NCBI GenBank assembly: GCA_017608025.1
Contig: JAFCGM010000004.1
Location: 90,744-154,743, forward strand
DNA length: 64,000 bases
Reading direction: 5' to 3'
DNA from: Candidatus Pacearchaeota archaeon
GTDB taxonomy: Archaea; Nanobdellota; Nanobdellia; UBA10117; JABICX01
Part shown: positions 8,287-60,154 of the stretch, one piece after another
Layout: each line of letters begins with the position of its first letter
Numbering within the stretch: position 1 is the stretch's first letter
Translations under genes and position numbers: made by a program
Notes under the pieces: generated by a model
Told to the model about the DNA's origin: nothing
Database searches by the model: none
Seen by the model: the letters and a program-made list of their open reading frames with translations, nothing else

Positions 8287-8687
8287 TAAAATCAAAAAAA
8301 TCTCTTATTTACATAATGGAAACAATGCTTTGTGCAGTGGCTTTTGCGCTTATATTATTCTACTTTTCAAACTCGTTCTCAAGCCTTGAACAAGATACTT
8401 CTGAAATTGATACAGATAGCTTAATATATTCTTTAATTAATACTCGGGAAGTAAATATTTCATCAATTCCCAACATAAAAACAAGTTCAGAAAGAATAAT
8501 GGGTACAAGCTTCGAACTTAAAATGTTTTTTATAAATTCAAGCTGCTACATACTAAACTCCACAGATAGTCTTATTCAGAACTCAAATTGCTCATACTCA
8601 TTCAACACAAACAAAAATGTATTTTCCGGAGAAGCAAAAATAAGCACAGGAGAAACAATAAAAATATTATTTTGGAGGAAAATGTGA
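8277..8687 (+). CDS. Pilin-like protein with a class III signal peptide.
   Basis: N-terminus MELIKSKKSLIYIMETMLCAVAFALILF. Overlaps the upstream gene. Confidence 0.4.
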   Translation: MELIKSKKSLIYIMETMLCAVAFALILFYFSNSFSSLEQDTSEIDTDSLIYSLINTREVNISSIPNIKTSSERIMGTSFELKMFFINSSCYILNSTDSLIQNSNCSYSFNTNKNVFSGEAKISTGETIKILFWRKM

Positions 8688-8933
8688 TGAATAATAATAT
8701 ATTATCGAGGAAACTTATTTTTTGATGAAACTTTTTCAAAAGTTTCCGAAGATAGCGCCAGAAGGAACTTAGTTCCGCCTTGGGCTTTAGCCCTAGCCGA
8801 TTTTGCGGCTGAGTGTGTCCCTTGGCTAAAAGGACTTGAAGGAAAGTGTAATGAAAAATAAGTGACCTTTATAACTAAAATTTGGTCGCTGTCGCACAGT
8901 CCGGGCGAAACGGACAGAGGAAAATGTGATGAA
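8675..8933 (+). mobile_element. 224-bp family element (8693-8916) inserted exactly at an overlapping stop/start junction between two pilin genes. It is flanked by a 17-bp direct duplication (ggaggaaaatgtgatgaa at 8675-8692; gaggaaaatgtgatgaa at 8917-8933).
   Basis: Each copy keeps one gene end intact: copy 1 gives ...KM-TGA for the upstream gene; copy 2 supplies GAGG plus the ATG for the downstream gene. The insert has the tttgatgaaactttttcaaaagtttccg, gaagatagcgcc and gtgtcccttggctaaaaggact motifs plus GC-rich hairpins. Confidence 0.6.
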
Positions 8934-12788: not shown

Positions 12789-13676
12789 TTGTATTTTAAA
12801 AAAATGAATATATTAAACTCAATAAAAAATTTTTATGAAAAAAAATATAAGATTCTAGCAATAATTCCTCTTATAATTCTTTTAAGTTCAGTTGCATATC
12901 TTGGTTTTGTAAAAGCTTCAACTGGAGAATTTATTCAAAAAGATGTTTCTCTAAGCGGAGGAGTAATGATTACAATAAATACAAACGAAAATTTCAATGT
13001 AAAGGAACTCGAAGAACAATTTGAAAGCACAAAAGTTCGGCAAATAAAAGCAGCAGGAACAACAGAAATTCTAGGCTATTCTTTTGAATCAAACTACTAC
13101 TCTATTGAAGACCTTAAATCAAAAATCCACAAAACTACAAGCTTTGAATTTCAGGAAGGAAGCTATAGCATTGAGGAAACAAGCGCTTCATTAAGCTCTG
13201 CATTTTGGAGCAGCGCAATAAAAGCAATGATTTTCGCTTTTCTATTCATTTCAGTTGTTGTTTTTATATACTTTAGAAAAATTATACCTTCAGTAGCAAT
13301 TGTCCTCTCAGCTATTTCTGACATAATAATAACATTAACTGTGCTGAACATATTAAACATCTCTCTTTCAACAGCAGGAATTGCAGCAATTCTAATGTTA
13401 ATTGGTTATTCTGTTGACTCAAACATTCTCCTAACAACAAAAGTTGTAAAAAGAAAAAAAGATCTTTTTGAAAGCATTTTCACTGCAATGAAAACCGGCC
13501 TTACAATGCAAGCAACAACAATCGTGGCTCTGCTTTGTATCTTCCTTTTTTCTCCTGCAGAAATTTTGAAATCAATTACGCTAATCCTTATAATTGGAAT
13601 CCTTGTTGACTCAATAAACACTTGGATACAAAACGCCGGAATACTAAGCTGGTGGTCAAAAAAATGGGAAAAATAA
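12789..13676 (+). CDS. secF: Protein-export membrane protein SecF.
   Basis: N-terminal TM, periplasmic domain and C-terminal TM bundle. Lies directly upstream of and overlapping secD, the usual archaeal order. Confidence 0.75.
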   Translation: MYFKKMNILNSIKNFYEKKYKILAIIPLIILLSSVAYLGFVKASTGEFIQKDVSLSGGVMITINTNENFNVKELEEQFESTKVRQIKAAGTTEILGYSFESNYYSIEDLKSKIHKTTSFEFQEGSYSIEETSASLSSAFWSSAIKAMIFAFLFISVVVFIYFRKIIPSVAIVLSAISDIIITLTVLNILNISLSTAGIAAILMLIGYSVDSNILLTTKVVKRKKDLFESIFTAMKTGLTMQATTIVALLCIFLFSPAEILKSITLILIIGILVDSINTWIQNAGILSWWSKKWEK

Positions 13677-15232
13677 AGCAGATATTTTCATCATGGAAAA
13701 TCTGGCTCTTGCTAGCAGTACTGATACTTTCTATCTGGTCCATGTTTAACATAGAGGATTCAACAAACGGAAACATTGAAATAACCTATATTGAAAAAAA
13801 CTCAACATTTGAAGCAGCAGGATTGTCTTCTGGAAAAATAATAAATGAAATTAATAACCAAAAAATAGAAAACATCTCAGAGTTTAATAAAAAACTAAAT
13901 TCTTTTGAACCAAAAGACATAATCATAATAAAAACTCAGCAAGGATTAATTTTCAAAAAAACAGAAGAATACAAAGTTCTTGCTGAGAAAAACATGTCTT
14001 CTAAAATAAGAACAAAAGAAGTTGAATTTACAAAAATTCAAAAAGGCCTTGATTTAATTGGCGGCGCAAGAGTAATTTTAAAGCCAAATGAAAACATAAC
14101 TTCTCAGCAATTTTCAGACCTTCTGGCATTAATTGAAGAAAGAATGAACGTCTATGGCTTAAAAGACATAACCGTAAAATCTGTTACCGACATTTCAGGT
14201 CAAAAGTATGTTTTAATTGAAATCGCTGGTGCAAGCAGAGAAGAAGTAATTGACCTTGTGTCAAACCAAGGAAAGTTTGAAGCAAAAATAGCAAATAAAA
14301 CAATTTTTGTTGGTGGACAGGATATAAAATCAGTTTGCAGAGACACTTCTTGTTCAGGTGTTGCTCTGCAAAGTTGTGGTCAGTCTGAAACTGGGCAATG
14401 GTTCTGTCGCTACAATTTCAGAATAGACATAACTCCTAAAAGTGCTGAAAAATTTGCACAAGTTACATCCACAATTCCAATTGAATATGATTCTAAAACA
14501 GAAGAAAACTACCTTACAAAGCAAATTGACCTTTATCTTGACAATTCCCTTGTTGAATCCCTTAACATCGCTGCAGGACTAAAAGGTGAAGCAACAACTT
14601 CAATCACAATCTCTGGTCCAGGAATAGGCCAAACAAAGCAAGCAGCAATAAATGATGCAATTAATAAAATGAACAAAATGCAAACTCTGCTTATAACAGG
14701 CTCATTGCCAGTAAAGCTCGAAATTTCAAAAGTGGATATAATAAGTCCTTTATTAGGAAGCAATTTTCTTAAATATGCTTTCATATCTTTCGGAATTGCC
14801 CTTCTTGGTGTCGGAGCAGTAGTATTTTTGAGATTCAGAAAACTAAAGATAACAATACCAATTTTAATAACTGGAATTTCCGAAATCATAATCATCTTAG
14901 GAGTTGCATCTGTAATAAAATGGAATATTGACTTTGCAGCAATTGCCGGAATTCTCGCAACAATTGGAACAGGAGTAGATGATCAAATTGTCATAACTGA
15001 TGAAGTTTTAAGAGGTGAAATAGACTCCTCGTGGAAGCAAAAAATAAAAAACGCATTCTTCATTATAATGGCAGCATATTTCACAACTCTTGTTGCAATG
15101 GGCCCTCTTTACTTAATGGGCACAGGTCTTTTGAAAGGATTTGCAGTCACAACCATAATTGGAATCACTGCTGGCGTATTAATAACTCGGCCAGCATTTG
15201 CAAAAATAATTGAAATACTTCTGAAAGAATAA
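13622..15232 (+). CDS. secD: Protein-export membrane protein SecD. The true start is probably the ATG at 13664 (MGKIKQIF).
   Basis: Large periplasmic domain plus C-terminal 6-TM SecD/SecF fold (GTGVDDQIVITDE). 536 aa. Confidence 0.75.
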   Translation: MDTKRRNTKLVVKKMGKIKQIFSSWKIWLLLAVLILSIWSMFNIEDSTNGNIEITYIEKNSTFEAAGLSSGKIINEINNQKIENISEFNKKLNSFEPKDIIIIKTQQGLIFKKTEEYKVLAEKNMSSKIRTKEVEFTKIQKGLDLIGGARVILKPNENITSQQFSDLLALIEERMNVYGLKDITVKSVTDISGQKYVLIEIAGASREEVIDLVSNQGKFEAKIANKTIFVGGQDIKSVCRDTSCSGVALQSCGQSETGQWFCRYNFRIDITPKSAEKFAQVTSTIPIEYDSKTEENYLTKQIDLYLDNSLVESLNIAAGLKGEATTSITISGPGIGQTKQAAINDAINKMNKMQTLLITGSLPVKLEISKVDIISPLLGSNFLKYAFISFGIALLGVGAVVFLRFRKLKITIPILITGISEIIIILGVASVIKWNIDFAAIAGILATIGTGVDDQIVITDEVLRGEIDSSWKQKIKNAFFIIMAAYFTTLVAMGPLYLMGTGLLKGFAVTTIIGITAGVLITRPAFAKIIEILLKE

Positions 15233-15283: not shown

Positions 15284-15358
15284 AGCGGGATGGGGCAGTC
15301 TGGAGTGCCCGTCGGGCTCATAACCCGAAGGTCGAAGGTTCAAATCCTTCTCCCGCTA
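15284..15358 (+). tRNA. tRNA-Met (anticodon CAT), initiator-type.
   Basis: Cloverleaf: acceptor AGCGGGA/TCCCGCT, anticodon stem TCGGG/CCCGA with three G:C pairs, loop CTCATAA, T-arm GAAGG-TTCAAAT-CCTTC. A1:U72 pair, archaeal initiator signature. Confidence 0.85.
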
Positions 15359-15543
15359 CTTACAAGGAGAAATTCAATAAACCTTTTGGGTTGGAAAACA
15401 TCCCTGAAGGTTTTCCGCCAGAAACGAACGTAGTTCGTGCCTATGAAATAGTGCTTTTTTAAAAGGGCTGTTTAGGGTTGGAAGACCTTTTTCAAAGGGA
15501 TTCCGTTTGAATCCTTCTCCCGCTACTTACAAGGAGAAATTCA
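15343..15543 (+). mobile_element. 133-bp repeat element (15377-15509) inserted at the 3' end of tRNAi-Met, flanked by a 34-bp direct duplication of the tRNA 3' end plus downstream sequence (15343-15376 and 15510-15543).
   Basis: Exact direct repeat AATCCTTCTCCCGCTACTTACAAGGAGAAATTCA twice. The internal sequence shares a >50-nt near-identical core (GGTTTTCCGCCAGAAACGAACGTAGTTCGTGCCTATGAAATAGTGCTTTTT) with 35579-35632. Confidence 0.6.
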
Positions 15544-15556
15544 TCAAAAAAATAAA

Positions 15557-16207
15557 ATGAAAACATGCGGTGTTGATGAAGCTGGAAGAGGACCTATTAT
15601 CGGACCAATGGTTCTTGCAGGTGTTTGCGCTTCAGAAAAAAAACTAGAAGAATTAAAAAAGCTTCATATAAAAGATTCTAAATTACTAACTCCAAAACGG
15701 CGGGAAGAACTCTTCAAAAAGATAATTGCAAAATATAAATATGTAATTGTAAAAATATCTCCGCAAGAAATTGATTCTAACAACGCAAATGGAACAAATT
15801 TAAATCGCCTTGAAGCAAAAACTATTGCTCGAATAATTATGGAAATGAAACCTAACAAAGTAATTGTAGATTCTCCAGAACCTGCTGATGAGCAAAAATT
15901 TGGCCGAACAATAAAAGAACTATGTAAAAACTGCAAACCTAAAATTTCAAGTGAACATAAAGCAGATACAAACCACATTATTGTTGGTGCAGCCTCAATT
16001 CTAGCAAAAGTAACTCGCGACAAGGAAATTGAAAAAATAAAAAAAGAAACAAAAATAGATATTGGCTCAGGATACCCTTCAGATGAAATAACAATAAAAG
16101 CATTAAAAGAGCATTTAAGTGAACTTGAACCTTATATAAGAAAATGCTGGGCAACATACAAAAGACTCAAAGGTGAAAAGTTCCAAGCTAATTTAGAAGA
16201 TTTCTAG
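15557..16207 (+). CDS. rnhB: Ribonuclease HII.
   Basis: N-terminal GVDEAGRGPIIGPMV catalytic motif, 216 aa. Confidence 0.9.
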   Translation: MKTCGVDEAGRGPIIGPMVLAGVCASEKKLEELKKLHIKDSKLLTPKRREELFKKIIAKYKYVIVKISPQEIDSNNANGTNLNRLEAKTIARIIMEMKPNKVIVDSPEPADEQKFGRTIKELCKNCKPKISSEHKADTNHIIVGAASILAKVTRDKEIEKIKKETKIDIGSGYPSDEITIKALKEHLSELEPYIRKCWATYKRLKGEKFQANLEDF

Positions 16208-16364
16208 TTTGGGGTTGGAAGACCTTTTCTAAAGGGATTCCTGTGAAAAGTTCCAAGCTAATTTAGGAGATTTCTAATTCAGTGCACAACAATGCAAATG
16301 TTTGTGCGCTAAGCGTGGGTCCCTTCGCTTTAAGGACTTCCAAGCTAATTTAGGAGATTTCTAA
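16177..16364 (+). repeat. Three direct copies of the rnhB 3' end (ttccaagctaatttag[a/g]agatttcta[g/a]) at 16180-16207, 16248-16274 and 16339-16364, separated by two short hairpin elements (16208-16247; 16278-16338).
   Basis: Copy 1 ends in TAG; copies 2 and 3 are identical to each other and end in TAA. Inserts carry the family motifs tttggggttggaagaccttttctaaagggattcc and gtgggtcccttcgctttaaggact. Confidence 0.6.
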
Positions 16365-16756
16365 ACTTTCTCAAGAAGTTTATTAAGATAAGAAACAGTA
16401 ACATCTCGCATAAAGCGGATTATATCTATATTCTCTGGGTTATGCAGACGTATATTTTTCTTATCAACAACATATGTAAAATTAAAAGTATTAGTAATAA
16501 AATCAAAGGTTAAAATATCATGACAAGCAGTAATGCGCGATTCTAACGTCTCATCAGATTTACTCAAAAATAGCTGATAGATTAAACCACTATACGTTGA
16601 GATTTTATTATTTTTATAATCTCTAACAACATCCATAAAAATCTCGGGATCTTTTCTAATTTCAGCAGGCAATCCAAGAACCTCGTCTGGAATTGGAATT
16701 GCTCCAAACCCACATTTAGTTACTTCATAATCCTCAGGATTAAGATATTCAACCAT
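16361..16756 (-). CDS. Hypothetical protein (131 aa).
   Basis: ORF only. Its stop codon overlaps the last rnhB-tail repeat copy. Confidence 0.35.
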   Translation of the reverse strand: MVEYLNPEDYEVTKCGFGAIPIPDEVLGLPAEIRKDPEIFMDVVRDYKNNKISTYSGLIYQLFLSKSDETLESRITACHDILTFDFITNTFNFTYVVDKKNIRLHNPENIDIIRFMRDVTVSYLNKLLEKV

Positions 16757-16796
16757 AAATAAAATTCAATAAGCGTATTCTTAAACATTTGTATAA

Positions 16797-18107
16797 TCAC
16801 GGCGTCAACCTCTCAGTATCTCTTGGAAATAAAATTCCTTCTCTTATGTTTCCCAGACCGCAAATCATCATTGTAAGACGGTCAACTCCCAAACCAAAAC
16901 CTCCGTGAGGTGGCATTCCATATTTGAAAGGCATTAAATAATCCTTAAAATCTTTCGGATTCATTCCTTTTTCTTTTATTTGCTTTACAAGAACATCATA
17001 CCTGTGCTCTCTCTGGCTTCCAGTAAACATCTCTTGCCCTTTGTATTCCAAATCTCCTCCAAAACCAACTTTCTTATCCATCATCCAGTAAAATTTTCCC
17101 TCTTTCCTCGGAAGTTCAGAAATAAAATAAGCATCTGTCTTGTATTTGCTCTTCACAATATTTCCAAGAATTTTCTCCTTCTCCAAGTCAAGTTCTTCTC
17201 CTTTTTTCACTTTGACTCCAGACTTTTTAAGCAAATCAACTGCTTCTGAATGTTTTATTCTTGGAAATGGAAGTTTTGGAACATCAATCTTAACTCCTAG
17301 CTCCCTAAGTTCATTTTTGCATTCTCTCTTAACTTTCCTCAAAACATAAACCAGCATTCTTTCTCCAACAGAAAAAACATCTTCATACGAGTCTATAAAA
17401 GACATTTCAACATCCAAATGTGAGAACTCAGCAACATGCCTAATTGTATGTGATTTTTCAGCTCTGAAACTGGGACCTATTTCAAAAACTTTCTCAAACC
17501 CTGCAGCCATCATTATCTGCTTGTAAAGCTGCTGACTCTGAGACAAATAGGCTTTTTTATTAAAATAATCAAAAGCAAAAAGAGTTGCACCACCTTCTGC
17601 TCCAGACTCTGAAATTTTTGGGGTATGAACTTCAATAAAATCCTCTTTTCTGAAAAATTCTCTTAAAGCAGAAAAGATTTCCTGTCTTATCTTAAATATT
17701 GCAAGATTTCTCGAATTTCTTAAATCCAAAAACCTATTGTCAAGCCTTTTGCTAAACTCGGTTTCAATATTTTTATCGTGAATTGATATCGGCAATGGAG
17801 TTTTTGCCTTGTTTAAAATATCCATTTTAGAAACAACAACTTCATTTGCACCAGATTTGAGTTTTGATTTTTTAACTTCTCCTTCAACAAGAACAACTGA
17901 CTCAACAGTAAGATTTTTTATTTTTTCAAAATCTGGAAATTTTTTCTTCAAAAAAGTAAGCTGAATTTTACCTTCACGGTCTCTCAAAGTTATAAAAGAA
18001 AGCTTTCCTAAAAATTTTATTTTTTCAACCCAGCCAGCAAGAACAACATTTTTTCCAGACTGCATTTTCAAGGCTTTTCTTGTGCTTATTCTTTTGCTGA
18101 ATTTCAT
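16797..18107 (-). CDS. aspS: Aspartyl-tRNA synthetase, archaeal type (possibly non-discriminating Asp/Asn).
   Basis: N-terminal OB anticodon-binding domain, class II motifs (FRAE..., GGFGLGVDRL), C-terminal ...FPRDTERLTP. 436 aa. Confidence 0.8.
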   Translation of the reverse strand: MKFSKRISTRKALKMQSGKNVVLAGWVEKIKFLGKLSFITLRDREGKIQLTFLKKKFPDFEKIKNLTVESVVLVEGEVKKSKLKSGANEVVVSKMDILNKAKTPLPISIHDKNIETEFSKRLDNRFLDLRNSRNLAIFKIRQEIFSALREFFRKEDFIEVHTPKISESGAEGGATLFAFDYFNKKAYLSQSQQLYKQIMMAAGFEKVFEIGPSFRAEKSHTIRHVAEFSHLDVEMSFIDSYEDVFSVGERMLVYVLRKVKRECKNELRELGVKIDVPKLPFPRIKHSEAVDLLKKSGVKVKKGEELDLEKEKILGNIVKSKYKTDAYFISELPRKEGKFYWMMDKKVGFGGDLEYKGQEMFTGSQREHRYDVLVKQIKEKGMNPKDFKDYLMPFKYGMPPHGGFGLGVDRLTMMICGLGNIREGILFPRDTERLTP

Positions 18108-18157
18108 AATATTACTTTAAAATAAAGAAATAAAAGCATTGCTGTATTTGCTTGAAT

Positions 18158-18913
18158 TTATTGAAAATCTTGCTCTGAATTGCCTATTGCAGACAAGTCT
18201 GCCTCTTGCTGCTCTGGCTCAAAATTAACAATAATTCCATCATCTGTTATGTGCATTGGAATCAAATCTCTTTTTTGCTTTGTTCTTCTTATTTTCAAGA
18301 CCCGAATCATTCTGTCAGTATCTCCGCCCAACCCGCCATAATGCAATGTTGTAACTGAATCAGAAATAAACTCCTCAACACCAAACCTTGAAAGAGAGCC
18401 TCCGCCACTAGAATCAATTGAGCCAGACTCTGTAACTTCTGCAGTCAAAAGTGCTGTAACTCCTGTTTTCTTAACAACTCTCTGCATTTCAAAAAGAAAT
18501 TTTCTAACTTCATATGAATTTCCCATAGCCAATCCCAAAACAGAAGATGAATCAAAAACAACTCTTTTTGCTTGAAAGCTTCTTATTTCATCAATAAGGT
18601 TGTCTGAAAATTTCTTCAAATCATAAGGTGAATGAAAAATAATTTTAGCTCGATTTAATTTTTCAAGCTGTTCAAAATCCCAATTAAAACTTCTTGCATC
18701 TTCAATCAAATCCTCTTTTGTCTGCTCAAAGGAAATGTAAATGCCTCTGTCTCCGTAACTAATTGCGCCATAATAAATAAACTGAAGTGCAAAAATTGTT
18801 TTTCCAGTTCCAGGACCTCCGCTAATCATATTCAAACTACCAGGATAAAATCCCCCCTGAATTAAATTATCAAAACCAGGAACTCCAGTAGGAACTCTTC
18901 TAATATTATTCAT
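18158..18913 (-). CDS. KaiC-like / RecA-superfamily ATPase (archaeal RadA paralogue aRadC-type).
   Basis: Walker A GGPGTGKT, single KaiC-like domain, 251 aa. Confidence 0.7.
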   Translation of the reverse strand: MNNIRRVPTGVPGFDNLIQGGFYPGSLNMISGGPGTGKTIFALQFIYYGAISYGDRGIYISFEQTKEDLIEDARSFNWDFEQLEKLNRAKIIFHSPYDLKKFSDNLIDEIRSFQAKRVVFDSSSVLGLAMGNSYEVRKFLFEMQRVVKKTGVTALLTAEVTESGSIDSSGGGSLSRFGVEEFISDSVTTLHYGGLGGDTDRMIRVLKIRRTKQKRDLIPMHITDDGIIVNFEPEQQEADLSAIGNSEQDFQ

Positions 18914-19085: not shown

Positions 19086-19988
19086 ATGGTTTTAGAGTCA
19101 ATAATCCCAGTAAACATTGCTGAGGAAAGGCCGATTAAAATTCTTCCTACAAGTTTCATATATGCCACAATAGCCTTGTTCATTGCTTATTGGCTTTTCC
19201 CAACAGAAGCTAGCATGACTCTAATTTTTTTCACAGTAATGGCTTGCCTTCCTCTAATGCTTGGCCTAATCGGACTTGAAAAACTAAAAGCAGAAGCAAT
19301 TTTAAAGGAAATAGTTTTTGACTATGTATCTCAACCAAATAAAAAAACATCAAATCCTTTCAAAACCCACAAAAAATTCTTCCTGTTTATGACATACTTA
19401 ACAATTGGACTTGTTCTTGCATTCACTCTTTGGTATATTGTTCTGCCAACAAATATGGTAAATCTTCTTTTCAATTCCCAAATAAACACAATAAACACAA
19501 TAAACAGCAATGTGTCCCATCTAACTGGAAATGCAATAAACATTATATCTTATTTCAGCATAATACTTACAAACAATCTCAAGGTTTTGATTTTCTGTCT
19601 TCTCTTTTCTTTCATTTATGGAGCAGGAGCAATTTTCATTCTTGTTTGGAACGCCAGTGTTGTATCTATTGCAATTGGAAATTCAATTAGAGGTCTTTTA
19701 AGCAGTTACGCAGCAGCAACTGGAGCAAACACTCTTAGTCAGTATTTCTCTGCCTTCTCTCTTGGACTCTTGCGATATATTGTACATGGAATTCCTGAAA
19801 TCGGAGCATATTTTATTGGTGGGCTTGCTGGAGGAATGATTTCAATTGCAATTATAAAACACGAATTTATGAGTCCTAAATTCAAAATAATTTTAATGGA
19901 CGCCCTCCTGCTAATGCTAATTTCTGTCGGGCTTCTAATCCTTGCCGCACTTATAGAAACCTTTATCAGTCCACTAATTCCTATTTAA
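19086..19988 (+). CDS. SpoIIM-like (DUF95 family) polytopic membrane protein, paralogue 1.
   Basis: Multi-TM protein. Conserved core NNLKVLIFCLLFSFIYGAGAIFILVWNASVV is shared with the downstream paralogue. Confidence 0.5.
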   Translation: MVLESIIPVNIAEERPIKILPTSFIYATIALFIAYWLFPTEASMTLIFFTVMACLPLMLGLIGLEKLKAEAILKEIVFDYVSQPNKKTSNPFKTHKKFFLFMTYLTIGLVLAFTLWYIVLPTNMVNLLFNSQINTINTINSNVSHLTGNAINIISYFSIILTNNLKVLIFCLLFSFIYGAGAIFILVWNASVVSIAIGNSIRGLLSSYAAATGANTLSQYFSAFSLGLLRYIVHGIPEIGAYFIGGLAGGMISIAIIKHEFMSPKFKIILMDALLLMLISVGLLILAALIETFISPLIPI

Positions 19989-20331
19989 GTCATTGTTCTT
20001 TTGATGAAATTTTTTCAAAAAGTTTCCGCCAGCGCTTTTTCTAAAAGGGGCTTTTTTCTTTTCCGCAGCCGCTTTTTCTAAAAGGGGCTTTGGGGTTGGA
20101 AGACCTCTAAATTAGTTTTCTTTTTAGGACGGGTTTTTCTTTTTCTAAAAGAAAAAAGCATTTGGGAATGCAAACACTTTTCTAAAGGGTTTGCAGAGGC
20201 GTTCATCAGTCCGCTAATTCCTATTTAAGTCATTGTTCTTTTGATGAAATTTTTTTCCAAAATTTCAATTTTTTGCGAGCTTTGTTCTTGCTCTAAGAAA
20301 GCTTAAATAATACTCTTACTACAATTAATTT
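19965..20331 (+). repeat. Composite repeat element between the SpoIIM paralogues, flanked by a 52-bp direct duplication of the paralogue-1 3' end (19965-20016 and 20205-20258). It contains tandem ttccgc(c/a)agc(g/c)gctttttctaaaaggggct units and the terminal gggaatgcaaacacttttctaaagggtttgc hairpin.
   Basis: Direct repeats read directly from the sequence. The terminal hairpin GCAAAC...GTTTGC abuts the second target copy, as at the Hef and radA loci. Confidence 0.6.
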
Positions 20332-35557: not shown

Positions 35558-35674
35558 GTGTGGAGGTTCTTTTCTAAAGGTTTTCCGCCAGAAACGAACG
35601 TAGTTCGTGCCTATGAAATAGTGCTTTTTCTAAAAGAGCTGTTTGAGGTGAAGACCTTTTCCAAAGGGATTCAA
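35558..35674 (+). repeat. Repeat-family element covering the 5' leader of the next gene.
   Basis: Contains the ~53-nt core shared with 15403-15455 and an end gaggtgaagaccttttccaaagggattcaa. The ORF-track start at 35558 lies inside it. Confidence 0.6.
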
Positions 35675-39023: not shown

Positions 39024-40099
39024 TGGCAAAAAAAACAAAACCTGAAAAAAAAGAGGAAAAAATTTCAGAAGAAATTGCAGAAAACAATCCAGAAGAAAAA
39101 GCAAAACAAAAAAAAGAATCTGATGAAATAAAAGAAAAAGAAAAAGTAGCTACAATGAAAATCGAGGACTTACCTGGAGTTGGTCCGGCAACTGTTGAAA
39201 AGCTAAAGGAAGCAGGTTATTTAGACTTAATGAGTCTAGCAGCAGCCCCTTCTCGTGAACTTGCAGACATAGCAGGAATGACTGAATCTGGAGCAGGAAA
39301 AGTTATTGTTGCTGCAAGAAAAGCTCTTAAAATTGATTTCATGACAGGAGATGAATTATCTTCAAAAAGAAAAAGTATTGAAAGAATATCAACTGGAAGC
39401 CAGGAATTTAACAAGCTTATTGGTGGGGGAATTGAAACACAAGGTCTGTTTGAATGCTTTGGTGAATATGGTTCTGGAAAATCCCAACTAGCAATGCAGT
39501 TGGCAGTTATGGCTCAGCTTCCAAAAGAAAACGGAGGTCTCAACAGTGATGTAATTTACATTGACACAGAAAACACATTCCGGCCAGAAAGAATAAAGCA
39601 AATAGCAGAAGCGCAAGGCCTTGACTCTAAAAAAGTATTGAAAAGAATAATGGTAGCTCGGGCATTCACATCAGATCATCAAATGCTGCTTGCAGAAAAA
39701 ATTGACAGTATGATTCGTGAAAAGAATATACACGTAAGGCTTGTAATAGTAGATTCCTTAACTTCATTATTCAGAACAGAATATTCTGGAAGAGGAACTC
39801 TCGCCACAAGACAGCAAAAACTTAATCGACATCTTCACACTCTGCAGAGAATCGCAGACATACACAACATAGCAGTTTACGTAACAAACCAAGTAATGGC
39901 TCGGCCAGACATTTTCTTTGGAAACCCAACAGCAGCAATAGGAGGTCATGTTCTAGGGCATGCCTGCCAGTTCAGAGTTTACCTTAGAAAAAGCAAAGGA
40001 GACAAAAGAATCGCCCGCTTAATAGACTCTCCATATTTACCAGAAGGCGAAGCAATCTTCAGAGTAACTGAAAAAGGAATTGAAGATATTAAGTCCTAA
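39023..40099 (+). CDS. radA: DNA repair and recombination protein RadA, with a Lys/Glu-rich N-terminal extension or an alternative start at 39155.
   Basis: HhH ([13 protein letters not shown]), Walker [10 protein letters not shown], RecA core. 358 aa. Confidence 0.9.
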
Positions 40100-40440
40100 C
40101 TTGTGTTAAGCAATCACTTTTTTGATGAAACTTTTTCTAAAATTTCAATTTTTTGCAAGCTTTCTTTCTAAGAAAGCTTTGGGAATGAAAACACTTTTTA
40201 AAGGGTTTTCTGTAACTGAAAAAGGAATTGAAGATGTTAAGTCTTAATTACAGGTATCGTATTTTGTTTACCTGTTGAAAGTGCCAGCTGATTTTGCAGC
40301 TGGAAGATGTTAAGTCTTAATTACAGGTATCGTATTTTGTTTACCTGTTGAAAGTGCCAGCTGATTTTGCAGCTGGAAGATGCTAAATCCTAACTTATAT
40401 TAAGCAATCCATTTTTTTAATGAAACTTTTTCTAAAAGAG
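40066..40440 (+). repeat. Nested/tandem array downstream of radA: four direct copies of the radA 3' end (40066-40099, 40214-40247, 40303-40320, 40376-40393). They are separated by a ~95-bp family element and by two copies of a 55-bp two-hairpin module (40248-40302 and 40321-40375; period 73 bp).
   Basis: Copies ...gaagat(a/g)ttaagtc(c/t)taa. Module ttaCAGGTAtcgtattttgttTACCTGttgaaagtgcCAGCTGattttgCAGCTG with two perfect stems. Confidence 0.65.
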
Positions 40441-44286: not shown

Positions 44287-44543
44287 GATGCTCACCCTTA
44301 CATTCCATTTTAATTTACCTTGATTTTCCGTGAACACTTTTCTTAAAAGGGTTCTTGTTTTTTTGATGAAACTTTTTCTAAAAGTTTCCGTGAACACTTT
44401 TCTTAAAAGGGTTCTTGTTTTTTTGATGAAACTTTTTCTAAAAGTTTCCGTGAACACTTTTGCAGGCATCGTATTTTATTCGCCTGCTCAGAGTGCCAGC
44501 TGATCTCTCAGCTGTGGTGCTCACCCTTACATTCCATTTTAAT
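44287..44543 (+). repeat. Repeat locus upstream of tRNA-Cys. 25-bp direct repeats (44290-44314 and 44519-44543) flank two and a fraction tandem 60-bp units (44325-44384, 44385-44444) plus one 52-bp two-hairpin module (44462-44513).
   Basis: Unit tttccgtgaacacttttcttaaaagggttcttgtttttttgatgaaactttttctaaaag. Module GCAGGCatcgtattttattcGCCTGCtcagagtgcCAGCTGatctctCAGCTG. Confidence 0.65.
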
Positions 44544-52835: not shown

Positions 52836-52993
52836 TTATCAACAAGAACAATAACTCGTTTTCCAATTAATTTTTTCGGAAGTGTGATTTTTCCAGATGA
52901 AGCATTGTTTTTAATAACATATCTTGTTAAAATTTGGTTAAAGTTTATTGGCTTCAACTTAACACTTCCCCGAACTTTCGCATTAATTCCCAT
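52823..52993 (-). CDS. 56-aa AbrB/MazE/SpoVT-like swapped-hairpin DNA-binding protein. Not in the supplied ORF track because it is under 60 aa.
   Basis: Translation MGINAKVRGSVKLKPINFNQILTRYVIKNNASSGKITLPKKLIGKRVIVLVDKEQE. The GKITLPKKL..GKRV motif resembles the AbrB swapped hairpin. ATG at 52991-52993 (rc), TAA at 52823-52825 (rc). Confidence 0.35.
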   Translation of the reverse strand: MGINAKVRGSVKLKPINFNQILTRYVIKNNASSGKITLPKKLIGKRVIVLVDKEQE

Positions 52994-53359
52994 TAAATTA
53001 ATTCCTCATCTTTCTAATTTGTTTCTTTGGGCAACTTGCACTTTCTTTTCTAAAGAAAGGGCAGAGCATTAATTCCCATTAAATTAATTCCTCGTCTCTC
53101 TAATTTGTTTCTTTGGGCAACTTGCACTTTCTTTTCTAAAGAAAGGGCAGAGCATAACTTTTATAGTCTAATTAAAGACTACAATATTTAAAAACCTTAT
53201 GTGCATCCTTGCTCTACACGATCATATTCGTCATTTTCCGCAAGCGCTTTTTCCAAAAGGGCTCCATGAGTCCCTTGGCTAGAAGGACTATAACCAGAAT
53301 TAAACCGTTGTGTGAAGCTCTGCTTTACACGACCAGCCTGTGTCCCTTGGCTAGAAGGA
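52979..53359 (+). repeat. Two tandem 87-bp units (52979-53065 and 53066-53152), each beginning with a copy of the AbrB-like gene start. These are followed by a ~120-bp GC-richer family element (53235-53359) carrying two gtcccttggctagaaggacta hairpin motifs.
   Basis: Tandem units are near-identical. The 53235-53292 segment is ~90% identical to 3041-3100. Confidence 0.6.
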
Positions 53360-55581: not shown

Positions 55582-55770
55582 CTAAAATATAACGTATGCT
55601 TCTTAAATTATATTTCTTTTAGTGCAGGTTTTCTTTGTAAAAGAAAAAGTGCAAAGGTCTCTAAAATATAACGTATGCTTCTTAAATTATATTTTTTTCT
55701 TTGTAAAAGAAAAAGTGCAAAGGTCTCTAAAATATAACGTATGCTTCTTAAATTATATTTCTTTTAATAC
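55582..55770 (+). repeat. Three tandem direct repeats (79, 66 and a partial ~45 bp) upstream of the TraB-family gene.
   Basis: Unit ctaaaatataacgtatgcttcttaaattatattt(c)tttt...ctttgtaaaagaaaaagtgcaaaggtct. Units begin at 55582, 55661 and 55727. Confidence 0.7.
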
Positions 55771-56514: not shown

Positions 56515-56526
56515 TTAAAAATATTT

Positions 56527-56818: not shown

Positions 56819-56823
56819 TTATC

Positions 56824-57672: not shown

Positions 57673-57673
57673 A

Positions 57674-59872
57674 ATGCAATTCTTAAAGCAAAAGCTAAAT
57701 TTAAGAGTGTATCAGCAAACAATATTAAACACAGCTCTTAGCAAAAATACTCTTTGCGTAATCCCTACTGGTCTTGGAAAAACCTACATAGCAATAGCTC
57801 TAATTGGCTTAAAATTAAAAGAAAAAAAAGCAATTTTTCTTGCTCCAACTAAGCCTCTTGTAACGCAGCACTTTAACACCTTTAAGCAGTTTTTTGATTC
57901 TGAACCCGAAGAAATAATTGAAGTTTCTGGAACAGTTCCTTCAAAAAAAAGAAAAGAAATGTATAAAAAAGCAAAAATAATTTTTGCAACCCCACAAACA
58001 ATTGAAAATGACATAATTACAAAAAGAATACTTCCTGAGGAATTTTCAATAGCAATATTTGATGAAGCTCATCGCGCAGTAGGAGACTATGCATATGTTT
58101 TCCTTGCAAAGCAATTCAAAGAAAGTAGAATTCTAGCATTAACAGCTTCTCCCGGTCATGAAATTGAAAAAATAAATGAAATAAAAAATAACCTGTTTAT
58201 TCAAGAAATTGAAAAAAGAACACAAAAAGACAAAGATGTTAAAGAATATGTAAAGGAAATTAAATTTCAGTACAAAAAAGTTGAGCTTCCAAAACTTATG
58301 AAAGCAATACAAAAACACCTTAAAATGGCAATGAAAGAATATCTTGTCCAACTAAAGGAATTAGATATTATTGACTCAACCAGCTTGTCAAAATTCAGCA
58401 GAAAAAACCTTCTAAATCTTCAAACTAAACTTCGTACGCAAATAAGCACAGGAGATTTTGAAATAATGCGCGCCCTATCAATAACAGCAAGACTAATAAA
58501 AATAAATTATGCCCTTCATCTTCTTGAATCTGAATCGCTGAATGCCTTGAATGATTATTTAAAGTCAATTTGGAAAGATTCAAAAACAACAAAAACAAAA
58601 GCAGTAAAAGCTCTTGTCCAAAATTTCCATATTCGTGCAGCATACAGGCTTTCTCAAGAATGTAAAGAAAAGAAAATAGAGCACCCAAAAATGCTTGAAC
58701 TGAAAAAAACAATTAAACAGGAATTGAAAAAAAATCCCAACTCAAAAATACTAATTTTCACTGAATACCGAAGCAATGTTGAGCAAATTGTACAAGAATT
58801 ATCTGAATTTAAAATTCATCAGTTTGTTGGCCAATCCTCTTTAAAGAAAAAAGGAATGTCGCAAAAAGAGCAGATTAAAGCAATAGAAGATTTAAAAACA
58901 GGAAAAGTTAATGTTCTTGTCTGCACTTCTGTAGCTGAAGAAGGCCTTGACATTCCAAAAGTGGATTTAATTGTTCTTTATTCTCCAATTCCTTCTGCTA
59001 TTAGGTCAATACAAAGAAAAGGAAGAACTGGCAGACAGGAAGTTGGAAATCTTGTAGTCCTTTTAACAAAAGACACAAAAGATGAAACTTATCATTGGAT
59101 TTCTGTAAATCGGGAAAGGAAAATGAATCAAGTGCTTACAAACATGTCACAGTCAAAAAGCAAGCTAATAACTCTTGACTCCTTTCAAAACAAAAGCAAA
59201 GAAAAGCAAACTGTTGAAAATAGGGAAGAAATAAAAGTATATTGTGATTGCCGCGAATCAGGAATATTAAAATATCTCATAGAGCACGGCGTTACAGTTC
59301 TTCCAAAAAAACTAGAAGTTGCAGACTTCATTCTCTCTGATGATATTGCAGTTGAAAGAAAGGAAGTAGAAGATTTTACTTCTTCTTTAATTGACCAACG
59401 CCTTTTTAACCAAGCAACTGAACTAAAACGAAACTTCGAAAAACCGCTTTTTATTATTGAAGGAGACTTATCAGAAATTTTCTTTTCAAGAAACATAAAT
59501 CCTGATGCTCTCCGCTCAGCAATGATCTCTTTGCTTGTTGATTATCAAATACCTTTTTTATTCAGTTCAAACAAGCAGGAAACTGCAAAATACCTTTACC
59601 TCATAGCTAAAAGAGAACAAATTGAAAAGAAAAAATTAATTTCCTTACGCGGCTCCAAAAGATTAACTTCAATTCCAGAAATGCAGCAATTCTTTATTGA
59701 AGGTTTGCCTTTAATTGGTCCTGCTCTTACAAAAAAGCTCCTAAAGCACTTCAAAACACCAAAAGCTTTGTTAAATGCCTCAAAAGAAGAGCTTCAAAAT
59801 GTTAAAAACCTCGGCCCAAAAAAAGCAGAAAAAATCAAAATGATTCTTGAAGAAATATATGATGAAGAATGA
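57674..59872 (+). CDS. hef: Hef (helicase-associated endonuclease for fork-structured DNA; XPF/FANCM homologue).
   Basis: SF2 helicase motifs (GLGKT, DEAH), XPF nuclease ERK motif (AVERKEVEDF), C-terminal HhH2. 732 aa. Confidence 0.85.
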   Translation: MQFLKQKLNLRVYQQTILNTALSKNTLCVIPTGLGKTYIAIALIGLKLKEKKAIFLAPTKPLVTQHFNTFKQFFDSEPEEIIEVSGTVPSKKRKEMYKKAKIIFATPQTIENDIITKRILPEEFSIAIFDEAHRAVGDYAYVFLAKQFKESRILALTASPGHEIEKINEIKNNLFIQEIEKRTQKDKDVKEYVKEIKFQYKKVELPKLMKAIQKHLKMAMKEYLVQLKELDIIDSTSLSKFSRKNLLNLQTKLRTQISTGDFEIMRALSITARLIKINYALHLLESESLNALNDYLKSIWKDSKTTKTKAVKALVQNFHIRAAYRLSQECKEKKIEHPKMLELKKTIKQELKKNPNSKILIFTEYRSNVEQIVQELSEFKIHQFVGQSSLKKKGMSQKEQIKAIEDLKTGKVNVLVCTSVAEEGLDIPKVDLIVLYSPIPSAIRSIQRKGRTGRQEVGNLVVLLTKDTKDETYHWISVNRERKMNQVLTNMSQSKSKLITLDSFQNKSKEKQTVENREEIKVYCDCRESGILKYLIEHGVTVLPKKLEVADFILSDDIAVERKEVEDFTSSLIDQRLFNQATELKRNFEKPLFIIEGDLSEIFFSRNINPDALRSAMISLLVDYQIPFLFSSNKQETAKYLYLIAKREQIEKKKLISLRGSKRLTSIPEMQQFFIEGLPLIGPALTKKLLKHFKTPKALLNASKEELQNVKNLGPKKAEKIKMILEEIYDEE

Positions 59873-59955
59873 TTTGGGGATGCAAACACTTTTTCAAAGG
59901 GTTTGCTGCTGAAAAAATCAAAATGATTCTTGAAGAAGAATTTAGTGAGGAGTAA
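59825..59955 (+). mobile_element. 35-bp hairpin element (59873-59907, tttggggatGCAAACactttttcaaaggGTTTGCtgct) inserted at the Hef 3' end with a ~48-bp duplication of the gene tail (59825-59872 and 59908-59955).
   Basis: Copy 1 encodes ...AEKIKMILEEIYDEE*. Copy 2 encodes ...AEKIKMILEEEFSEE*. The first 30 bp are identical and the ends have diverged. Confidence 0.55.
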
Positions 59956-60154
59956 TTAATTGTATGCAAATTTGTTACACTGCTTTATTAAAAGGACTTT
60001 AACAATAAAATATATTCAAAGAATAATAATAAATTTTATTAATTATATAAAAGGGTTCTTATTGGAAAATAGTCAAAAAATAGACTATAATAAGCCTTAA
60101 TTTTTTATGATATTTTCAGTAAAAAACAAAATACTCAAAAGAACTGCTTTTTTC

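What the first reader, a model, noticed from the sequence alone, without database searches (positions are those of the whole stretch)
15284..15543. Integration-like signature at the initiator tRNA: 34-bp duplication of the tRNA 3' end flanking a 133-bp non-coding insert
The last 16 nt of tRNAi-Met plus 18 nt downstream (AATCCTTCTCCCGCTACTTACAAGGAGAAATTCA) recur exactly 167 bp downstream. A tRNA 3'-end duplication is the classical attL/attR footprint of integrase-mediated insertion. Here the DNA between the repeats is only 133 bp, has no ORF, and consists of family modules. A 53-nt core is near-identical to 35579-35632. Either a larger integrated element was later deleted to this remnant, or these miniature elements are mobilised in trans by a tRNA-targeting recombinase encoded elsewhere.
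Basis: seen in the sequence. Interest (0 to 1): 0.7.

Follow-up and report, generated by a model that had tools for sequence, protein, structure and literature searches.

The report
Hairpin-module insertion duplicating a tRNA end
A 133-bp block of three small hairpin repeats was copied in behind the initiator tRNA gene of an uncultured archaeon and duplicated the tRNA's last 16 bases plus 18 more, one of about ten such insertions in this window, and one of its hairpins forms transfer-RNA introns in related archaea.

Summary
An exact 34-bp direct repeat (15343-15376 and 15510-15543) flanks a 133-bp ORF-less insert behind tRNAi-Met.

The integrase reading is only partly right. The insert is a 93%-identical copy of a chromosomal array of three hairpin modules (35577-35672). 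The same layout, target copy / hairpin modules / target copy, recurs about ten times in the window:
- at the 3' ends of rnhB, hef, radA and a SpoIIM-like gene;
- at a gene-gene junction;
- in a spacer near tRNA-Cys.

Repeat lengths range from 13 to 72 bp. A related genome has the unoccupied, single-copy site for two of these loci. No integrase or transposase is encoded in the window. No tyrosine-integrase homologue was found in about 300 kb of related contigs. No viral contig carries the repeat.

The tRNA duplication is therefore most likely a long target duplication made by a general, tRNA-independent copy-insertion of non-autonomous hairpin modules. The enzyme is unknown. I favour template switching during DNA synthesis.

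Module C is also the core of canonical-position introns in at least nine tRNA genes of related archaea. This links spacer repeats to mobile tRNA introns.

The parts
15284..15358 (+). tRNAi-Met (CAT), intact. Its 3' end is formed by repeat copy 1.
   Evidence: ARAGORN. Rfam tRNA, 65 bits.
15343..15376 (+). Repeat copy 1 (S): tRNA positions 58-73 plus 18 nt of trailer. It extends imperfectly to 15338.
   Evidence: Exact match. 44 nt at 91% (D13).
15377..15509 (+). Insert (M), 133 bp, with no real ORF: a ragged left filler plus three hairpin modules.
   Evidence: It folds into separate hairpins, z = -3.7.
15384..15416 (+). Module A: leader TTTTGGGTT plus hairpin GGAAAAC...GTTTTCC.
   Evidence: Read from the sequence. 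Aligned to 35560-35585.
15417..15469 (+). Module B: GCCAGAA, hairpin CGAAC-GTA-GTTCG, GCC, then a second hairpin with a CTTTTTT..AAAAG apex.
   Evidence: (D16) and 58: 100% identity over 45 nt to 35585-35629.
15470..15504 (+). Module C: leader GTTTAGGGTT plus hairpin GGAAGACCTTT-TTC-AAAGGGATTCC with a tandem G.A internal loop. Its 3' base directly abuts repeat copy 2.
   Evidence: Family D3. Covariation of the two basal pairs. Found in tRNA introns of relatives.
15510..15543 (+). Repeat copy 2 (S'): a dead tRNA 3' fragment plus trailer, followed by the 13-nt spacer and the rnhB ATG. The extension at 15505-15509 reads GTTTG instead of GTTCA.
15557..16207 (+). RNase HII gene (rnhB), the downstream neighbour.
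   Evidence: Pfam PF01351, E = 9.7e-47.
35560..35672 (+). Sister array A+B+C, ending GGGATTCAA directly before the ATG (35675) of a nucleotidyl-transferase gene.
16173..16364 (+). The same layout at the rnhB 3' end. Three copies of the last 27-34 nt including the stop codon (16173-16206, 16243-16276, 16338-16364) are separated by module C (16207-16242) and another module.
   Evidence: (D9). Also present in relatives L001 and L003/L209.
59825..59957 (+). The same layout at the 3' end of the Hef helicase/nuclease gene: 50-nt copies (27 nt exact) around a 33-nt module.
   Evidence: (D12).
40064..40393 (+). Four copies of the RadA gene end (40064-40099, 40212-40247, 40303-40320, 40376-40393) interleaved with modules.
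   Evidence: Unoccupied 35-nt spacer in L210 and an independent 13-21-nt duplication in L211.
19955..20266 (+). The end of a SpoIIM-like gene plus the first module, duplicated (72 nt, 88%) around about 170 nt of modules.
   Evidence: (D7).
44289..44543 (+). A 26-nt exact repeat flanking 203 nt of modules in the spacer next to tRNA-Cys.
   Evidence: D17. Single-copy unoccupied site in L210.
8675..8933 (+). A 17-nt exact repeat (GAGGAAAATGTGATGAA) around 225 nt of modules. I read it as a former stop/start junction of two genes.

Best explanation
The 34-bp (39 bp with two mismatches) repeat is a long target duplication. It was made when a 113-133-bp block of three non-autonomous hairpin modules was copied into the junction between tRNAi-Met and rnhB.

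The block belongs to families of short imperfect hairpins that fill the spacers of this compact archaeal (Woesearchaeota-like) genome as mosaic arrays. Most share a conserved CTTT(T)-loop-(A)AAAG apex, a purine-purine mismatch and a covarying lower stem.

The process is not tRNA-specific. It puts modules at gene ends and gene junctions, and it duplicates 13-72 bp of the target.

Inference: in a gene-dense genome only insertions that leave both neighbours intact survive. Here copy 1 completes the tRNA and its trailer. Copy 2 keeps the sequence in front of rnhB and is otherwise a dead fragment.

Shown here:
- insertion plus duplication, from unoccupied sites at two other loci;
- generality across loci;
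- family membership of the insert;
- absence of a recombinase gene in the window, and no tyrosine-integrase homologue in the related contigs held.

Inferred, and my preferred mechanism at about 40% of the weight within this explanation:
- The modules spread by template switching (copy choice) during DNA replication or repair, not by a dedicated cut-and-paste enzyme.
- The nascent strand leaves the target and copies a stretch of another module array, of arbitrary length, up to the 3' base of a terminal hairpin.
- It then re-engages the target upstream of where it left, so a stretch of the target is copied twice.
- This would account for the fixed right end, the ragged left end, the variable insert length, the variable duplication length and the exact tandem duplications inside arrays.

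A staggered-cut transposase encoded elsewhere remains possible.
For: 1. The insert is a copy of a chromosomal array, not foreign DNA. It is 98 nt at 93% identical to 35577-35672, with modules A, B and C in the same order.

2. The layout copy/modules/copy recurs at rnhB, hef, radA and SpoIIM gene ends, at 8675/8917 and at 44289/44518. There are 16 local direct repeats against 0 in each of 30 controls.

3. Unoccupied sites exist in relative GCA_964435825.1.
- The RadA-peptidase spacer is 35 nt without modules, against 374 nt with four RadA-end copies in the window.
- Another relative (L211) has an independent 13-21-nt duplication at the same gene end.
- The 26-mer of 44289/44518 is single-copy with no insert in L210.

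4. Repeat length varies from 13 to 72 bp, with no fixed stagger.

5. The anatomy is polar. By my reading of the printed junctions, the downstream copy starts 0-1 nt after the 3' base of a terminal hairpin (GGGATTCC| or CAGCTG|) in about 12 of 15 events. The left junction carries 0-11 nt of filler.

6. Inserts range from one 33-nt module (rnhB, hef) to 113-nt and longer arrays with the same right end.

7. Exact tandem duplications of 60, 66, 73 and 86 nt sit inside arrays, so duplication is active.

8. No recombinase was found.
- Pfam annotation of 57 window proteins shows only housekeeping genes.
- There is no tyrosine-integrase homologue in the window or in about 300 kb of related contigs.

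9. The hairpin is a conserved structure.
- The two basal pairs covary (GC/UA/AU and GC/CG/AU), and 0 of 500 shuffles reached the observed score.
- Extended stems occur almost only in the 9% of the window that is non-coding.

10. tRNAi-Met end duplications with different inserts and repeat lengths (16-19 nt) occur in L002, L012 and L099. They are absent in L001 and L209, so they are recurrent, lineage-specific events.
Against: - The enzymology is not shown. No donor-target microhomology could be demonstrated for the tRNA event, because the true donor is unknown.
- One boundary lies in the T loop in three of the four tRNA-linked events that were found without pattern bias: the window, L002 copy 2 and L012 tRNA-Ser. 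That suggests site preference, as for T-loop integrases.
- Among 32 tRNA genes in related contigs, 3'-end duplicates were seen only at tRNAi-Met.
- Downstream copies of protein-gene ends keep their stop codons and differ mainly by silent changes. Simple in-situ duplication followed by neutral decay does not predict this. It points to recombination between diverged lineages or to gene conversion.
- Only 64 kb of a contig of at least 193 kb was available, so a recombinase could be encoded elsewhere.
- The related contigs were screened only with one tyrosine integrase, not for transposases in general.
- Module B was found only twice, both times in the window.
Confidence: 0.55

Rival explanations
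1. Site-specific integration by a T-loop-type tyrosine integrase. The two 34-mers would be attL and attR. The 133 bp would be either a deletion remnant or a mini-element carrying an attP copy, mobilised in trans by an integrase encoded elsewhere.
For: - The repeat starts in the T loop and runs past the tRNA 3' end, and the tRNA is regenerated intact.
- Pseudo-copies recur at tRNAi-Met in four genomes, and L002 and L012 share the junction AGTGGG|AATCC.
- A real integrase next to a tRNAi-Met-derived attP exists in a low-GC viral contig, L127.
- Gene-end copies with an identical left part and a silently diverged right part resemble prophage e14 or phage 21 at the E. coli icd gene (my own knowledge; the pattern is).
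Against: - No integrase is in the window or in about 300 kb of relatives.
- The 25-mer, the GGGAATCC... junction and the module-B core are absent from 2.9 million viral contigs. The 25-mer is also absent from metagenome contigs.
- The insert is a copy of a chromosomal array.
- At least eight distinct non-tRNA targets with repeats of 13-72 bp would need many specificities.
- All four tRNAi-Met inserts are only 69-143 bp, and none retains a gene.
- The attP in L127 has a different core, 48 nt from the anticodon stem.
Confidence: 0.15
2. Homology-driven spread. Once a target-module-target allele exists, fragments or small circles carrying module plus target copy enter related cells. They integrate by RadA-dependent recombination through the 17-70-bp target homology, Campbell-type or as ends-out allele transfer. 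The repeats would then mark the homology used, not a staggered break.
For: - At rnhB in three genomes the left 24 nt of both copies are identical within a genome but differ between genomes. The last 11 nt differ between the copies by silent or conservative changes.
- The same left-identical, right-diverged pattern is seen at hef and radA.
- In L174, 12 differences in 48 nt change only 1 of 16 residues.
- Boundaries are conserved across relatives at rnhB.
Against: - It does not explain the first origin of any duplication.
- Double-stranded circles of 70-170 bp are physically unlikely.
- The tRNA repeat shows no diverged part.
- The downstream copy in L003/L209 overlaps the last codons of the convergent PRK gene. 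That alone can explain its conservation there.
Confidence: 0.15
3. The arrangement is kept for a function at the RNA level. Examples would be terminator hairpins that insulate rnhB from the tRNA promoter, a processed small RNA, or an intron-like insert in the T loop removed by the splicing endonuclease.
For: - Module C has a strong orientation bias. It lies 12-24 nt after the stop of a same-strand ORF of at least 90 aa in 7 independent loci, where its sense strand carries a T4-T5 run. It has the opposite orientation in all module-bearing tRNA introns.
- The full transcript can fold with copy 2 forming the acceptor and T stems. A 7-bp helix then forms between the T loop and GUUUGAA.
- Module C is a bona fide intron core in relatives.
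Against: - No Rfam family matches the modules even at E <= 1.
- Inspection of the T-arm region found no bulge-helix-bulge motif. The predicted helix is continuous with a 1-nt bulge.
- Copy 1 already gives a complete tRNA, so splicing is unnecessary.
- A function for the modules would not explain why the target is duplicated.
Confidence: 0.07
4. Assembly artefact. A metagenome assembler joined strain variants or repeats and created a false duplication.
For: The source is a metagenome-assembled contig. The repeat is exact. L003 has a 100-N gap right after the same tRNA.
Against: - The repeat continues imperfectly for 5 more nt.
- The same layout, with diverged copies, occurs at many loci and in independent assemblies from other projects: L001, L002, L003/L209, L012, L099, L138, L147, L155/L183 and L174.
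- L003 and L209 agree base for base across their rnhB duplication.
Confidence: 0.03

Closest known systems
Integrative elements at archaeal and bacterial tRNA genes (SSV- and pNOB8-type or phage-type tyrosine integrases, T-loop sublocation)
   Same: A direct repeat consisting of the tRNA 3' part from the T loop onward. An intact tRNA is regenerated on one side and a dead 3' fragment is left on the other. The initiator tRNA is a recurrent target.
   Different: No integrase. The 133-bp insert is a copy of chromosomal repeats. The identity extends 18 nt into a non-conserved trailer. The same layout occurs at protein-gene ends and spacers with repeats of 13-72 bp.
Caldiarchaeum tRNA-Thr disruption model (PMC3293823)
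   Same: A partial tRNA copy next to an intact gene. A mobile element is linked with tRNA intron gain in an uncultured archaeon.
   Different: There the 1.8-kb insert encodes a DNA recombinase and occurs six times. Here the inserts are 33-230 bp, non-coding, and no recombinase was found.
Transposed tRNA introns of Thermoproteales (Fujishima et al. 2010, as summarised in PMC4090602)
   Same: Near-identical intron sequences in tRNA genes of different specificity. The mechanism is unknown and thought to act at the DNA level.
   Different: Here the same core also sits outside tRNA genes, at gene ends, with target duplications and unoccupied sites. That gives a DNA-level footprint. The lineage is different (DPANN-like). 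The window's own insert is not an intron.
Bacterial extragenic palindromes and mosaics (REP/BIME, BOX, Correia, RPE; e.g. PMC3733652, PMC3184786)
   Same: Short imperfect palindromes confined to spacers. They are combined in mosaic arrays, with covarying stems and many copies.
   Different: An archaeal host. No GTAG/CGTC tag. No RAYT-type gene was seen. Long, variable target duplications. A link to tRNA introns.
MITEs of archaea and bacteria
   Same: Small, non-coding, multi-copy insertions flanked by direct repeats.
   Different: MITEs have defined terminal inverted repeats at both ends and a short, fixed target duplication (2-10 bp). They also have a parent IS. Here one end is ragged, the duplication is 13-72 bp, and no parent element is known.
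Prophage e14 or phage 21 at the E. coli icd gene (own knowledge, not checked in a paper here)
   Same: A displaced gene 3' end survives downstream. It differs from the functional end mainly by silent changes, with an identical core at the left.
   Different: Those are kilobase-scale prophages with an integrase. Here the inserts are 33-230 bp of hairpins.
Repetitive hairpin-forming elements of organelle genomes (e.g. sponge mitochondria, PMC2800124)
   Same: Proliferating hairpins that invade the spacers of a compact genome without any encoded enzyme.
   Different: A different host and different sequences. Long target duplications and intron use are not a described feature there, as far as I know. 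I saw only the title and abstract.

Membership tests
Integrase-mediated tRNA integration (attL/attR) | Direct repeat containing the 3' part of the tRNA, with the tRNA regenerated | tested here: met
Integrase-mediated tRNA integration (attL/attR) | Integrase gene inside the element or nearby | tested here: not met
   No recombinase among 57 window proteins scanned with Pfam. phmmer with the L127 integrase found nothing in the window or in about 300 kb of relatives. The rest of the genome was not available.
Integrase-mediated tRNA integration (attL/attR) | A free or integrated element elsewhere that carries the same att core (attP) | tested here: not met
   0 hits for the 25-mer in viral and metagenome contigs. 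0 hits for the GGGAATCC... junction in viral contigs. The searches are exact-match only.
Integrase-mediated tRNA integration (attL/attR) | Site specificity, meaning one target sequence | tested here: not met
   The same layout occurs at about ten unrelated targets in the window.
MITE | Short target-site duplication of fixed length | tested here: not met
   13-72 bp, variable.
MITE | Defined terminal inverted repeats at both ends, and a parent IS with transposase | tested here: not met
   The right end is fixed at a hairpin base and the left end is ragged. No transposase is in the window.
REP/BIME-like extragenic palindromes | Short imperfect palindromes confined to spacers, multi-copy, in mosaic arrays | tested here: met
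   Covariation.
REP/BIME-like extragenic palindromes | Association with a RAYT (IS200/IS605-like TnpA), and a GTAG/CGTC tag | tested here: not met
   No such gene is in the window. The modules start TTTGGGG or TTTCCG, not GTAG or CGTC.
Archaeal endonuclease-spliced tRNA intron | Lies inside a tRNA gene, and its removal gives a canonical tRNA | tested here: met
   Met for module C in relatives. The intron is at position 37/38 in tRNA-Met, -Val and -Arg, and the spliced forms are called as standard tRNAs. Not met for the window's insert, which lies 3' of a complete tRNA.
Archaeal endonuclease-spliced tRNA intron | Bulge-helix-bulge (or relaxed hBH) motif at the exon-intron junctions | tested here: inconclusive
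   In the relatives' introns, 4 nt complementary to nt 32-35 followed by 2 nt precede exon 2 (read by eye). In the window no such motif was found around the T loop. The predicted helix is continuous. No dedicated BHB search tool was available.

The most novel reading that the evidence does not exclude
The hairpin modules are the DNA-level mobile form of archaeal tRNA introns.
- One duplicative, polar copy-insertion process seeds them into gene ends, gene junctions and tRNA genes.
- In a tRNA anticodon loop they survive as introns when 4 nt happen to pair with nt 32-35, and only in the orientation that lacks the T run.
- Elsewhere they survive when the target duplication keeps both neighbours intact.

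The tRNAi-Met duplication would then be a failed or alternative outcome of the same event that creates introns. These footprints would reveal how archaeal tRNA introns are gained.
Probability: 0.25. Interest if true: 0.8.

Novelty: new variant of a known kind. Interest (0 to 1): 0.6.

Why it matters
Partial tRNA-gene duplications are routinely read as scars of viruses and plasmids. Here the same scar comes from tiny non-coding hairpin repeats that also duplicate the ends of ordinary genes. That is a caution for annotating integrated elements in uncultured archaea.

The anatomy does not fit the known small repeat elements. The target duplications are long and variable. One end is fixed and the other ragged. 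No enzyme gene was found in the sequence examined.

One of these hairpins is also the shared core of introns in many tRNA genes of related archaea. This gives a concrete sequence family, with occupied and unoccupied sites, for studying how archaeal tRNA introns move. That question is recorded as open in the literature (PMC4090602).

Tried and rejected
- **Source contig.** I tried to retrieve it through its own proteins. Nothing was on record, and the cluster look-up gave no names.

- **Genome-collection scan.** The scan with BAATCCTTCTCCCGCTA was badly chosen. Only L012 and L099 were useful, and they are biased towards a T-loop boundary by the pattern itself.

- **Metagenome scans.** The 25-mer found nothing, not even the source. 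The module-B core was therefore never searched in the genome or metagenome collections. It has 0 viral hits and 0 hits in the loci held.

- **More tRNAi-Met loci.** SecD relatives were fetched for this purpose. Synteny ends outside the closest clade.

- **Bulge-helix-bulge intron in the T loop.** Rejected by inspection. The 4 nt before the putative 3' bulge do not pair with nt 54-57, and the predicted helix has no 3-nt bulges.

- **Translation of the downstream gene-end copies by read-through.** Rejected. The spacings of 70, 83 and 98 nt are not multiples of three. By my reading of the window's rnhB sequence, reading on from the rnhB stop meets another stop before the copy, and the copy has no start codon in its own frame.

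- **K-turn or C/D-box reading of the TGATGA-hairpin modules.** The geometry does not fit, and Rfam gives nothing.

- **Microhomology TTCAAAT between the T loop and the GGGATTCAAATG end of the sister array.** The predicted junction GGGATTCAAATCC is not the observed GGGATTCCGTTTGAATCC.

- **Codon-position statistics on window loci alone.** These were not significant by a hand count: 10 of 21 differences were at third positions. Only the pooled silent-change excess, with the metagenome loci included, is persuasive.

- **Strict hairpin count across loci.** It undercounts module C because of its internal mismatches, so I did not use it.
Full report
**Observation**

The window is low-GC (about 33%) archaeal chromosome. 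The best named relatives of its RNase HII and SecD are Woesearchaeota, at about 50% identity. tRNA-Met(CAT) with the A1..U72 pair of an archaeal initiator lies at 15284-15358. It sits between secD (13622-15232) and rnhB (15557-16207).

The 34-mer occurs exactly twice, at 15343-15376 and 15510-15543. No match was found in 100 shuffles. It covers the last 16 nt of the tRNA and 18 nt of trailer. The intervening 133 bp has only trivial ORFs. The repeat continues 5 nt leftwards, as GTTCA in the tRNA and GTTTG in the second copy.

**What the insert is**

The whole insert, not only a 53-nt core, aligns with 35560-35672: 98 nt at 93%, with three modules in the same order. That array ends GGGATTCAA directly before the ATG of a nucleotidyl-transferase gene.

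The modules belong to families that fill the spacers of this genome. Most are hairpins with a conserved apex CTTT(T)-loop-(A)AAAG, a purine-purine mismatch and a variable lower stem. Hairpins with extended stems are found almost only in the 9% of the window that is non-coding.

For module C the two basal pairs covary (GC/UA/AU and GC/CG/AU). None of 500 shuffles reached the observed covariation. Rfam has no family for any module, even at E <= 1.

**The duplication is not special to the tRNA**

The same layout, target copy / modules / target copy, is present at several other places:
- The rnhB end: three copies of the last 27-34 nt including the stop, separated by module C and another module.
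- The hef end: 50 nt, of which 27 are exact.
- The radA end: four copies.
- The end of a SpoIIM-like gene: 72 nt.
- 8675/8917: a 17-nt sequence that I read as a former stop/start junction of two genes, now around 225 nt of modules.
- 44289/44518: 26 nt exact, next to tRNA-Cys.

The window holds 16 local direct repeats of at least 24 nt, against none in 30 Markov controls. Exact tandem duplications of 60-86 nt lie inside the arrays.

**Unoccupied sites**

A relative, GCA_964435825.1, shares the gene order RPA-RadA-peptidase-...-CysRS-tRNA-Cys.
- Its RadA-peptidase spacer is 35 nt with no module and no duplication.
- The window has 374 nt at that position.
- A third genome (L211) has 251 nt with its own 13-21-nt duplication of the RadA end.
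- The 26-mer of 44289/44518 is single-copy and uninterrupted in the relative, with both flanks alignable.

So these structures are insertions that duplicated the target. They arose independently in different lineages.

**The tRNAi-Met locus in relatives**

- L209 is the same species as L003. The tRNA is followed after 6 nt by a methyltransferase gene.
- L001 is the closest relative, with RNase HII 83% identical. It has no duplication, but it has a roughly 380-nt insertion at position 37/38 of the tRNA.
- L002 (76%) has two further copies of the tRNA end, with other modules between them.
- L012 and L099 have 19- and 17-nt duplications around 69- and 83-nt inserts. These two were found with a pattern that forces a T-loop boundary.

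The events are recurrent and lineage-specific.

**No recombinase**

- Pfam annotation of 57 window proteins gives only housekeeping functions: SecDF, RNase HII, AspRS, KaiC, RadA, Hef, Hel308, TopA, glycosyltransferases and others.
- A phmmer search with a genuine integrase found nothing in the window or in about 300 kb of related contigs. The related contigs were not screened for transposases in general.
- The 25-mer, the junction and the module-B core are absent from viral contigs. The 25-mer is also absent from metagenome contigs.
- One viral contig (L127) does carry a classical attP. It has the 3' 48 nt of an archaeal tRNAi-Met, starting in the anticodon stem. It is flanked by arm-type repeats and lies next to a tyrosine integrase. 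Real integrase targeting of this tRNA therefore exists, but it looks different.

**Anatomy that bears on mechanism**

- Duplication length varies from 13 to 72 bp.
- The right end of the insert is fixed. By my reading of the printed junctions, the downstream copy starts 0-1 nt after the 3' base of a terminal hairpin (GGGATTCC| or CAGCTG|) in about 12 of 15 events.
- The left junction carries 0-11 nt of filler.
- Inserts range from a single 33-nt module to copies of whole arrays with the same right end.

These features do not fit a cut-and-paste transposase with a fixed stagger, or one integrase with one site. They fit a polar copying process. I favour template switching during replication or repair: the strand leaves the target, copies part of another array up to a hairpin base, and returns upstream of the departure point. 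This is inference. No junction microhomology could be tested, because the true donor is unknown.

**Points that resist the simple model**

1. The T loop is a boundary in three of the four tRNA-linked events that were found without pattern bias: the window, L002 copy 2, and a pseudo-copy of tRNA-Ser in L012 that ends at TTCA. The fourth, L002 copy 3, starts at CCCGCTA.
2. Among 32 tRNA genes in related contigs, only tRNAi-Met shows 3'-end copies.
3. All four tRNAi-Met pseudo-copies read GT, then 2-3 changed bases, then AATCC....
4. Downstream copies of protein-gene ends keep their stop codon and differ mostly by silent changes.
   - rnhB in L003: 4 of 4 differences are silent.
   - L174: 12 differences in 48 nt with 15 of 16 residues kept.
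   - L155: 5 silent and 1 replacement.
5. At rnhB the left 24 nt of both copies are identical within each of three genomes but differ between genomes.
6. These copies are not read in frame, since the spacings are 70, 83 and 98 nt.

Partial explanations for points 4-6:
- Overlap with a convergent gene. In L003/L209 the downstream copy overlaps the last codons of the PRK gene.
- Gene conversion.
- Import of module-bearing alleles from diverged lineages by homologous recombination. This would give the e14/icd-like pattern.

I keep the last of these, and the integrase model, as rivals.

**Link to tRNA introns**

A metagenome scan with the module-C core found 71 loci. About 40 of them are one conserved coding gene and are irrelevant.

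In low-GC archaeal contigs the same 33-nt module lies in two contexts:
- Behind protein genes, flanked by duplicated gene ends (L138, L147, L155/L183, L174).
- Inside tRNA genes.

ARAGORN calls tRNA-Arg, -Met, -Val, -Leu, -Ser and others with 47-54-nt introns at or next to position 37/38. Removing the insert from three of them gives canonical tRNAs. The intron 3' ends carry 4 nt complementary to nt 32-35, followed by 2 nt. In those contigs 21 of 32 tRNA genes have predicted introns.

Orientation is biased.
- Behind genes, the module's sense strand carries the T4-T5 run. It lies 12-24 nt after the stop of a same-strand ORF in 7 independent loci.
- In tRNA genes it is always the other way round.

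Near-identical introns in different tRNAs are known from Thermoproteales, with unknown mechanism (PMC4090602). A recombinase-bearing element has been linked to intron gain in Caldiarchaeum (PMC3293823). I found no description of the same core occurring outside tRNA genes with target duplications. My literature search was limited.

**Verdict**

It is wrong in attributing the footprint to a tRNA-targeting integrase or to a decayed larger element.

The tRNA-end duplication is one instance of a general, apparently enzyme-gene-free proliferation of hairpin modules with long target duplications. Its mechanism is unresolved. The link to tRNA introns is the most interesting lead.

Noticed in passing
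L001 350-790: The tRNAi-Met of the closest relative (RNase HII 83% identical) is interrupted at position 37/38 by about 380 nt containing short ORFs. ARAGORN without the intron option misses the gene.
   Followed up: partly
L127 3190-4153 (IMG/VR UViG_3300030104_006563): A classical attP. The 3' 48 nt of an archaeal tRNAi-Met is flanked by repeated 'aaatgtctac' motifs and lies next to a 226-aa tyrosine integrase (Pfam PF00589, E = 2.4e-21).
   Followed up: yes
window 40230-40375, 44325-44444, 52980-53151, 55629-55760: Tandem duplications of 73, 60, 86 and 66 nt inside module arrays, at 98-100% identity. They indicate very recent duplication activity.
   Followed up: partly
window 16173-16364; L001 1514-1610; L003 6617-6750; L209 2336-2470: The rnhB-end duplication is present in three related genomes with the same left boundary. 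The left 24 nt of the copies are identical within each genome but differ between genomes (concerted pattern). In L003/L209 the downstream copy overlaps the last codons of the convergent PRK gene.
   Followed up: partly
window 40082-40393: The four RadA-end copies form a stepwise series from downstream to upstream: GCT AAA TCC, then GTT AAG TCT (twice), then ATT AAG TCC. The most downstream copy matches the GCT of relative L211.
   Followed up: partly
L012 1640-2100 (minus strand): tRNA-Ser(GCT) is preceded by a pseudo-copy of its 5' 50 nt, and by a further fragment ending at TTCA in the T loop. About 150 nt of hairpins separate them from the intact gene.
   Followed up: partly
window 15284-15556: The predicted minimum-energy fold of the read-through transcript uses the second repeat copy for the acceptor and T stems. 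The two changed bases (GTTTGAA) make a 7-bp helix with the T loop UUCAAAU.
   Followed up: partly
window 8720, 20005, 40120, 40415, 43975, 44360, 44420: A module family starts with TTTTGATGAAAC followed by a hairpin. It is reminiscent of a C box, but no Rfam C/D family matches.
   Followed up: partly
window 56487-56823: A very AT-rich spacer (the 2-kb bin 56001-58000 has GC about 0.26) with 95-nt repeats, between a TraB-family gene and an M50 peptidase gene. It is unlike the hairpin-module spacers.
   Followed up: no
window 15284-18913 versus L205, L207, L208: The block tRNAi-Met / rnhB / hypothetical / AspRS / KaiC lies between secD and the SpoIIM-STT3 genes. In more distant relatives (54% SecD identity) SpoIIM and STT3 follow secD, directly or after one small ORF.
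   Followed up: no
L207 4046-4290: A more distant Woesearchaeota-like contig has its own, different hairpin repeat family (GGCACGAGGAAC...GTTCCGAC) in the spacer after secD.
   Followed up: no
L003 5898-5997: A run of 100 N directly after the tRNAi-Met replaces the methyltransferase gene that is present at this place in the near-identical contig L209.
   Followed up: partly
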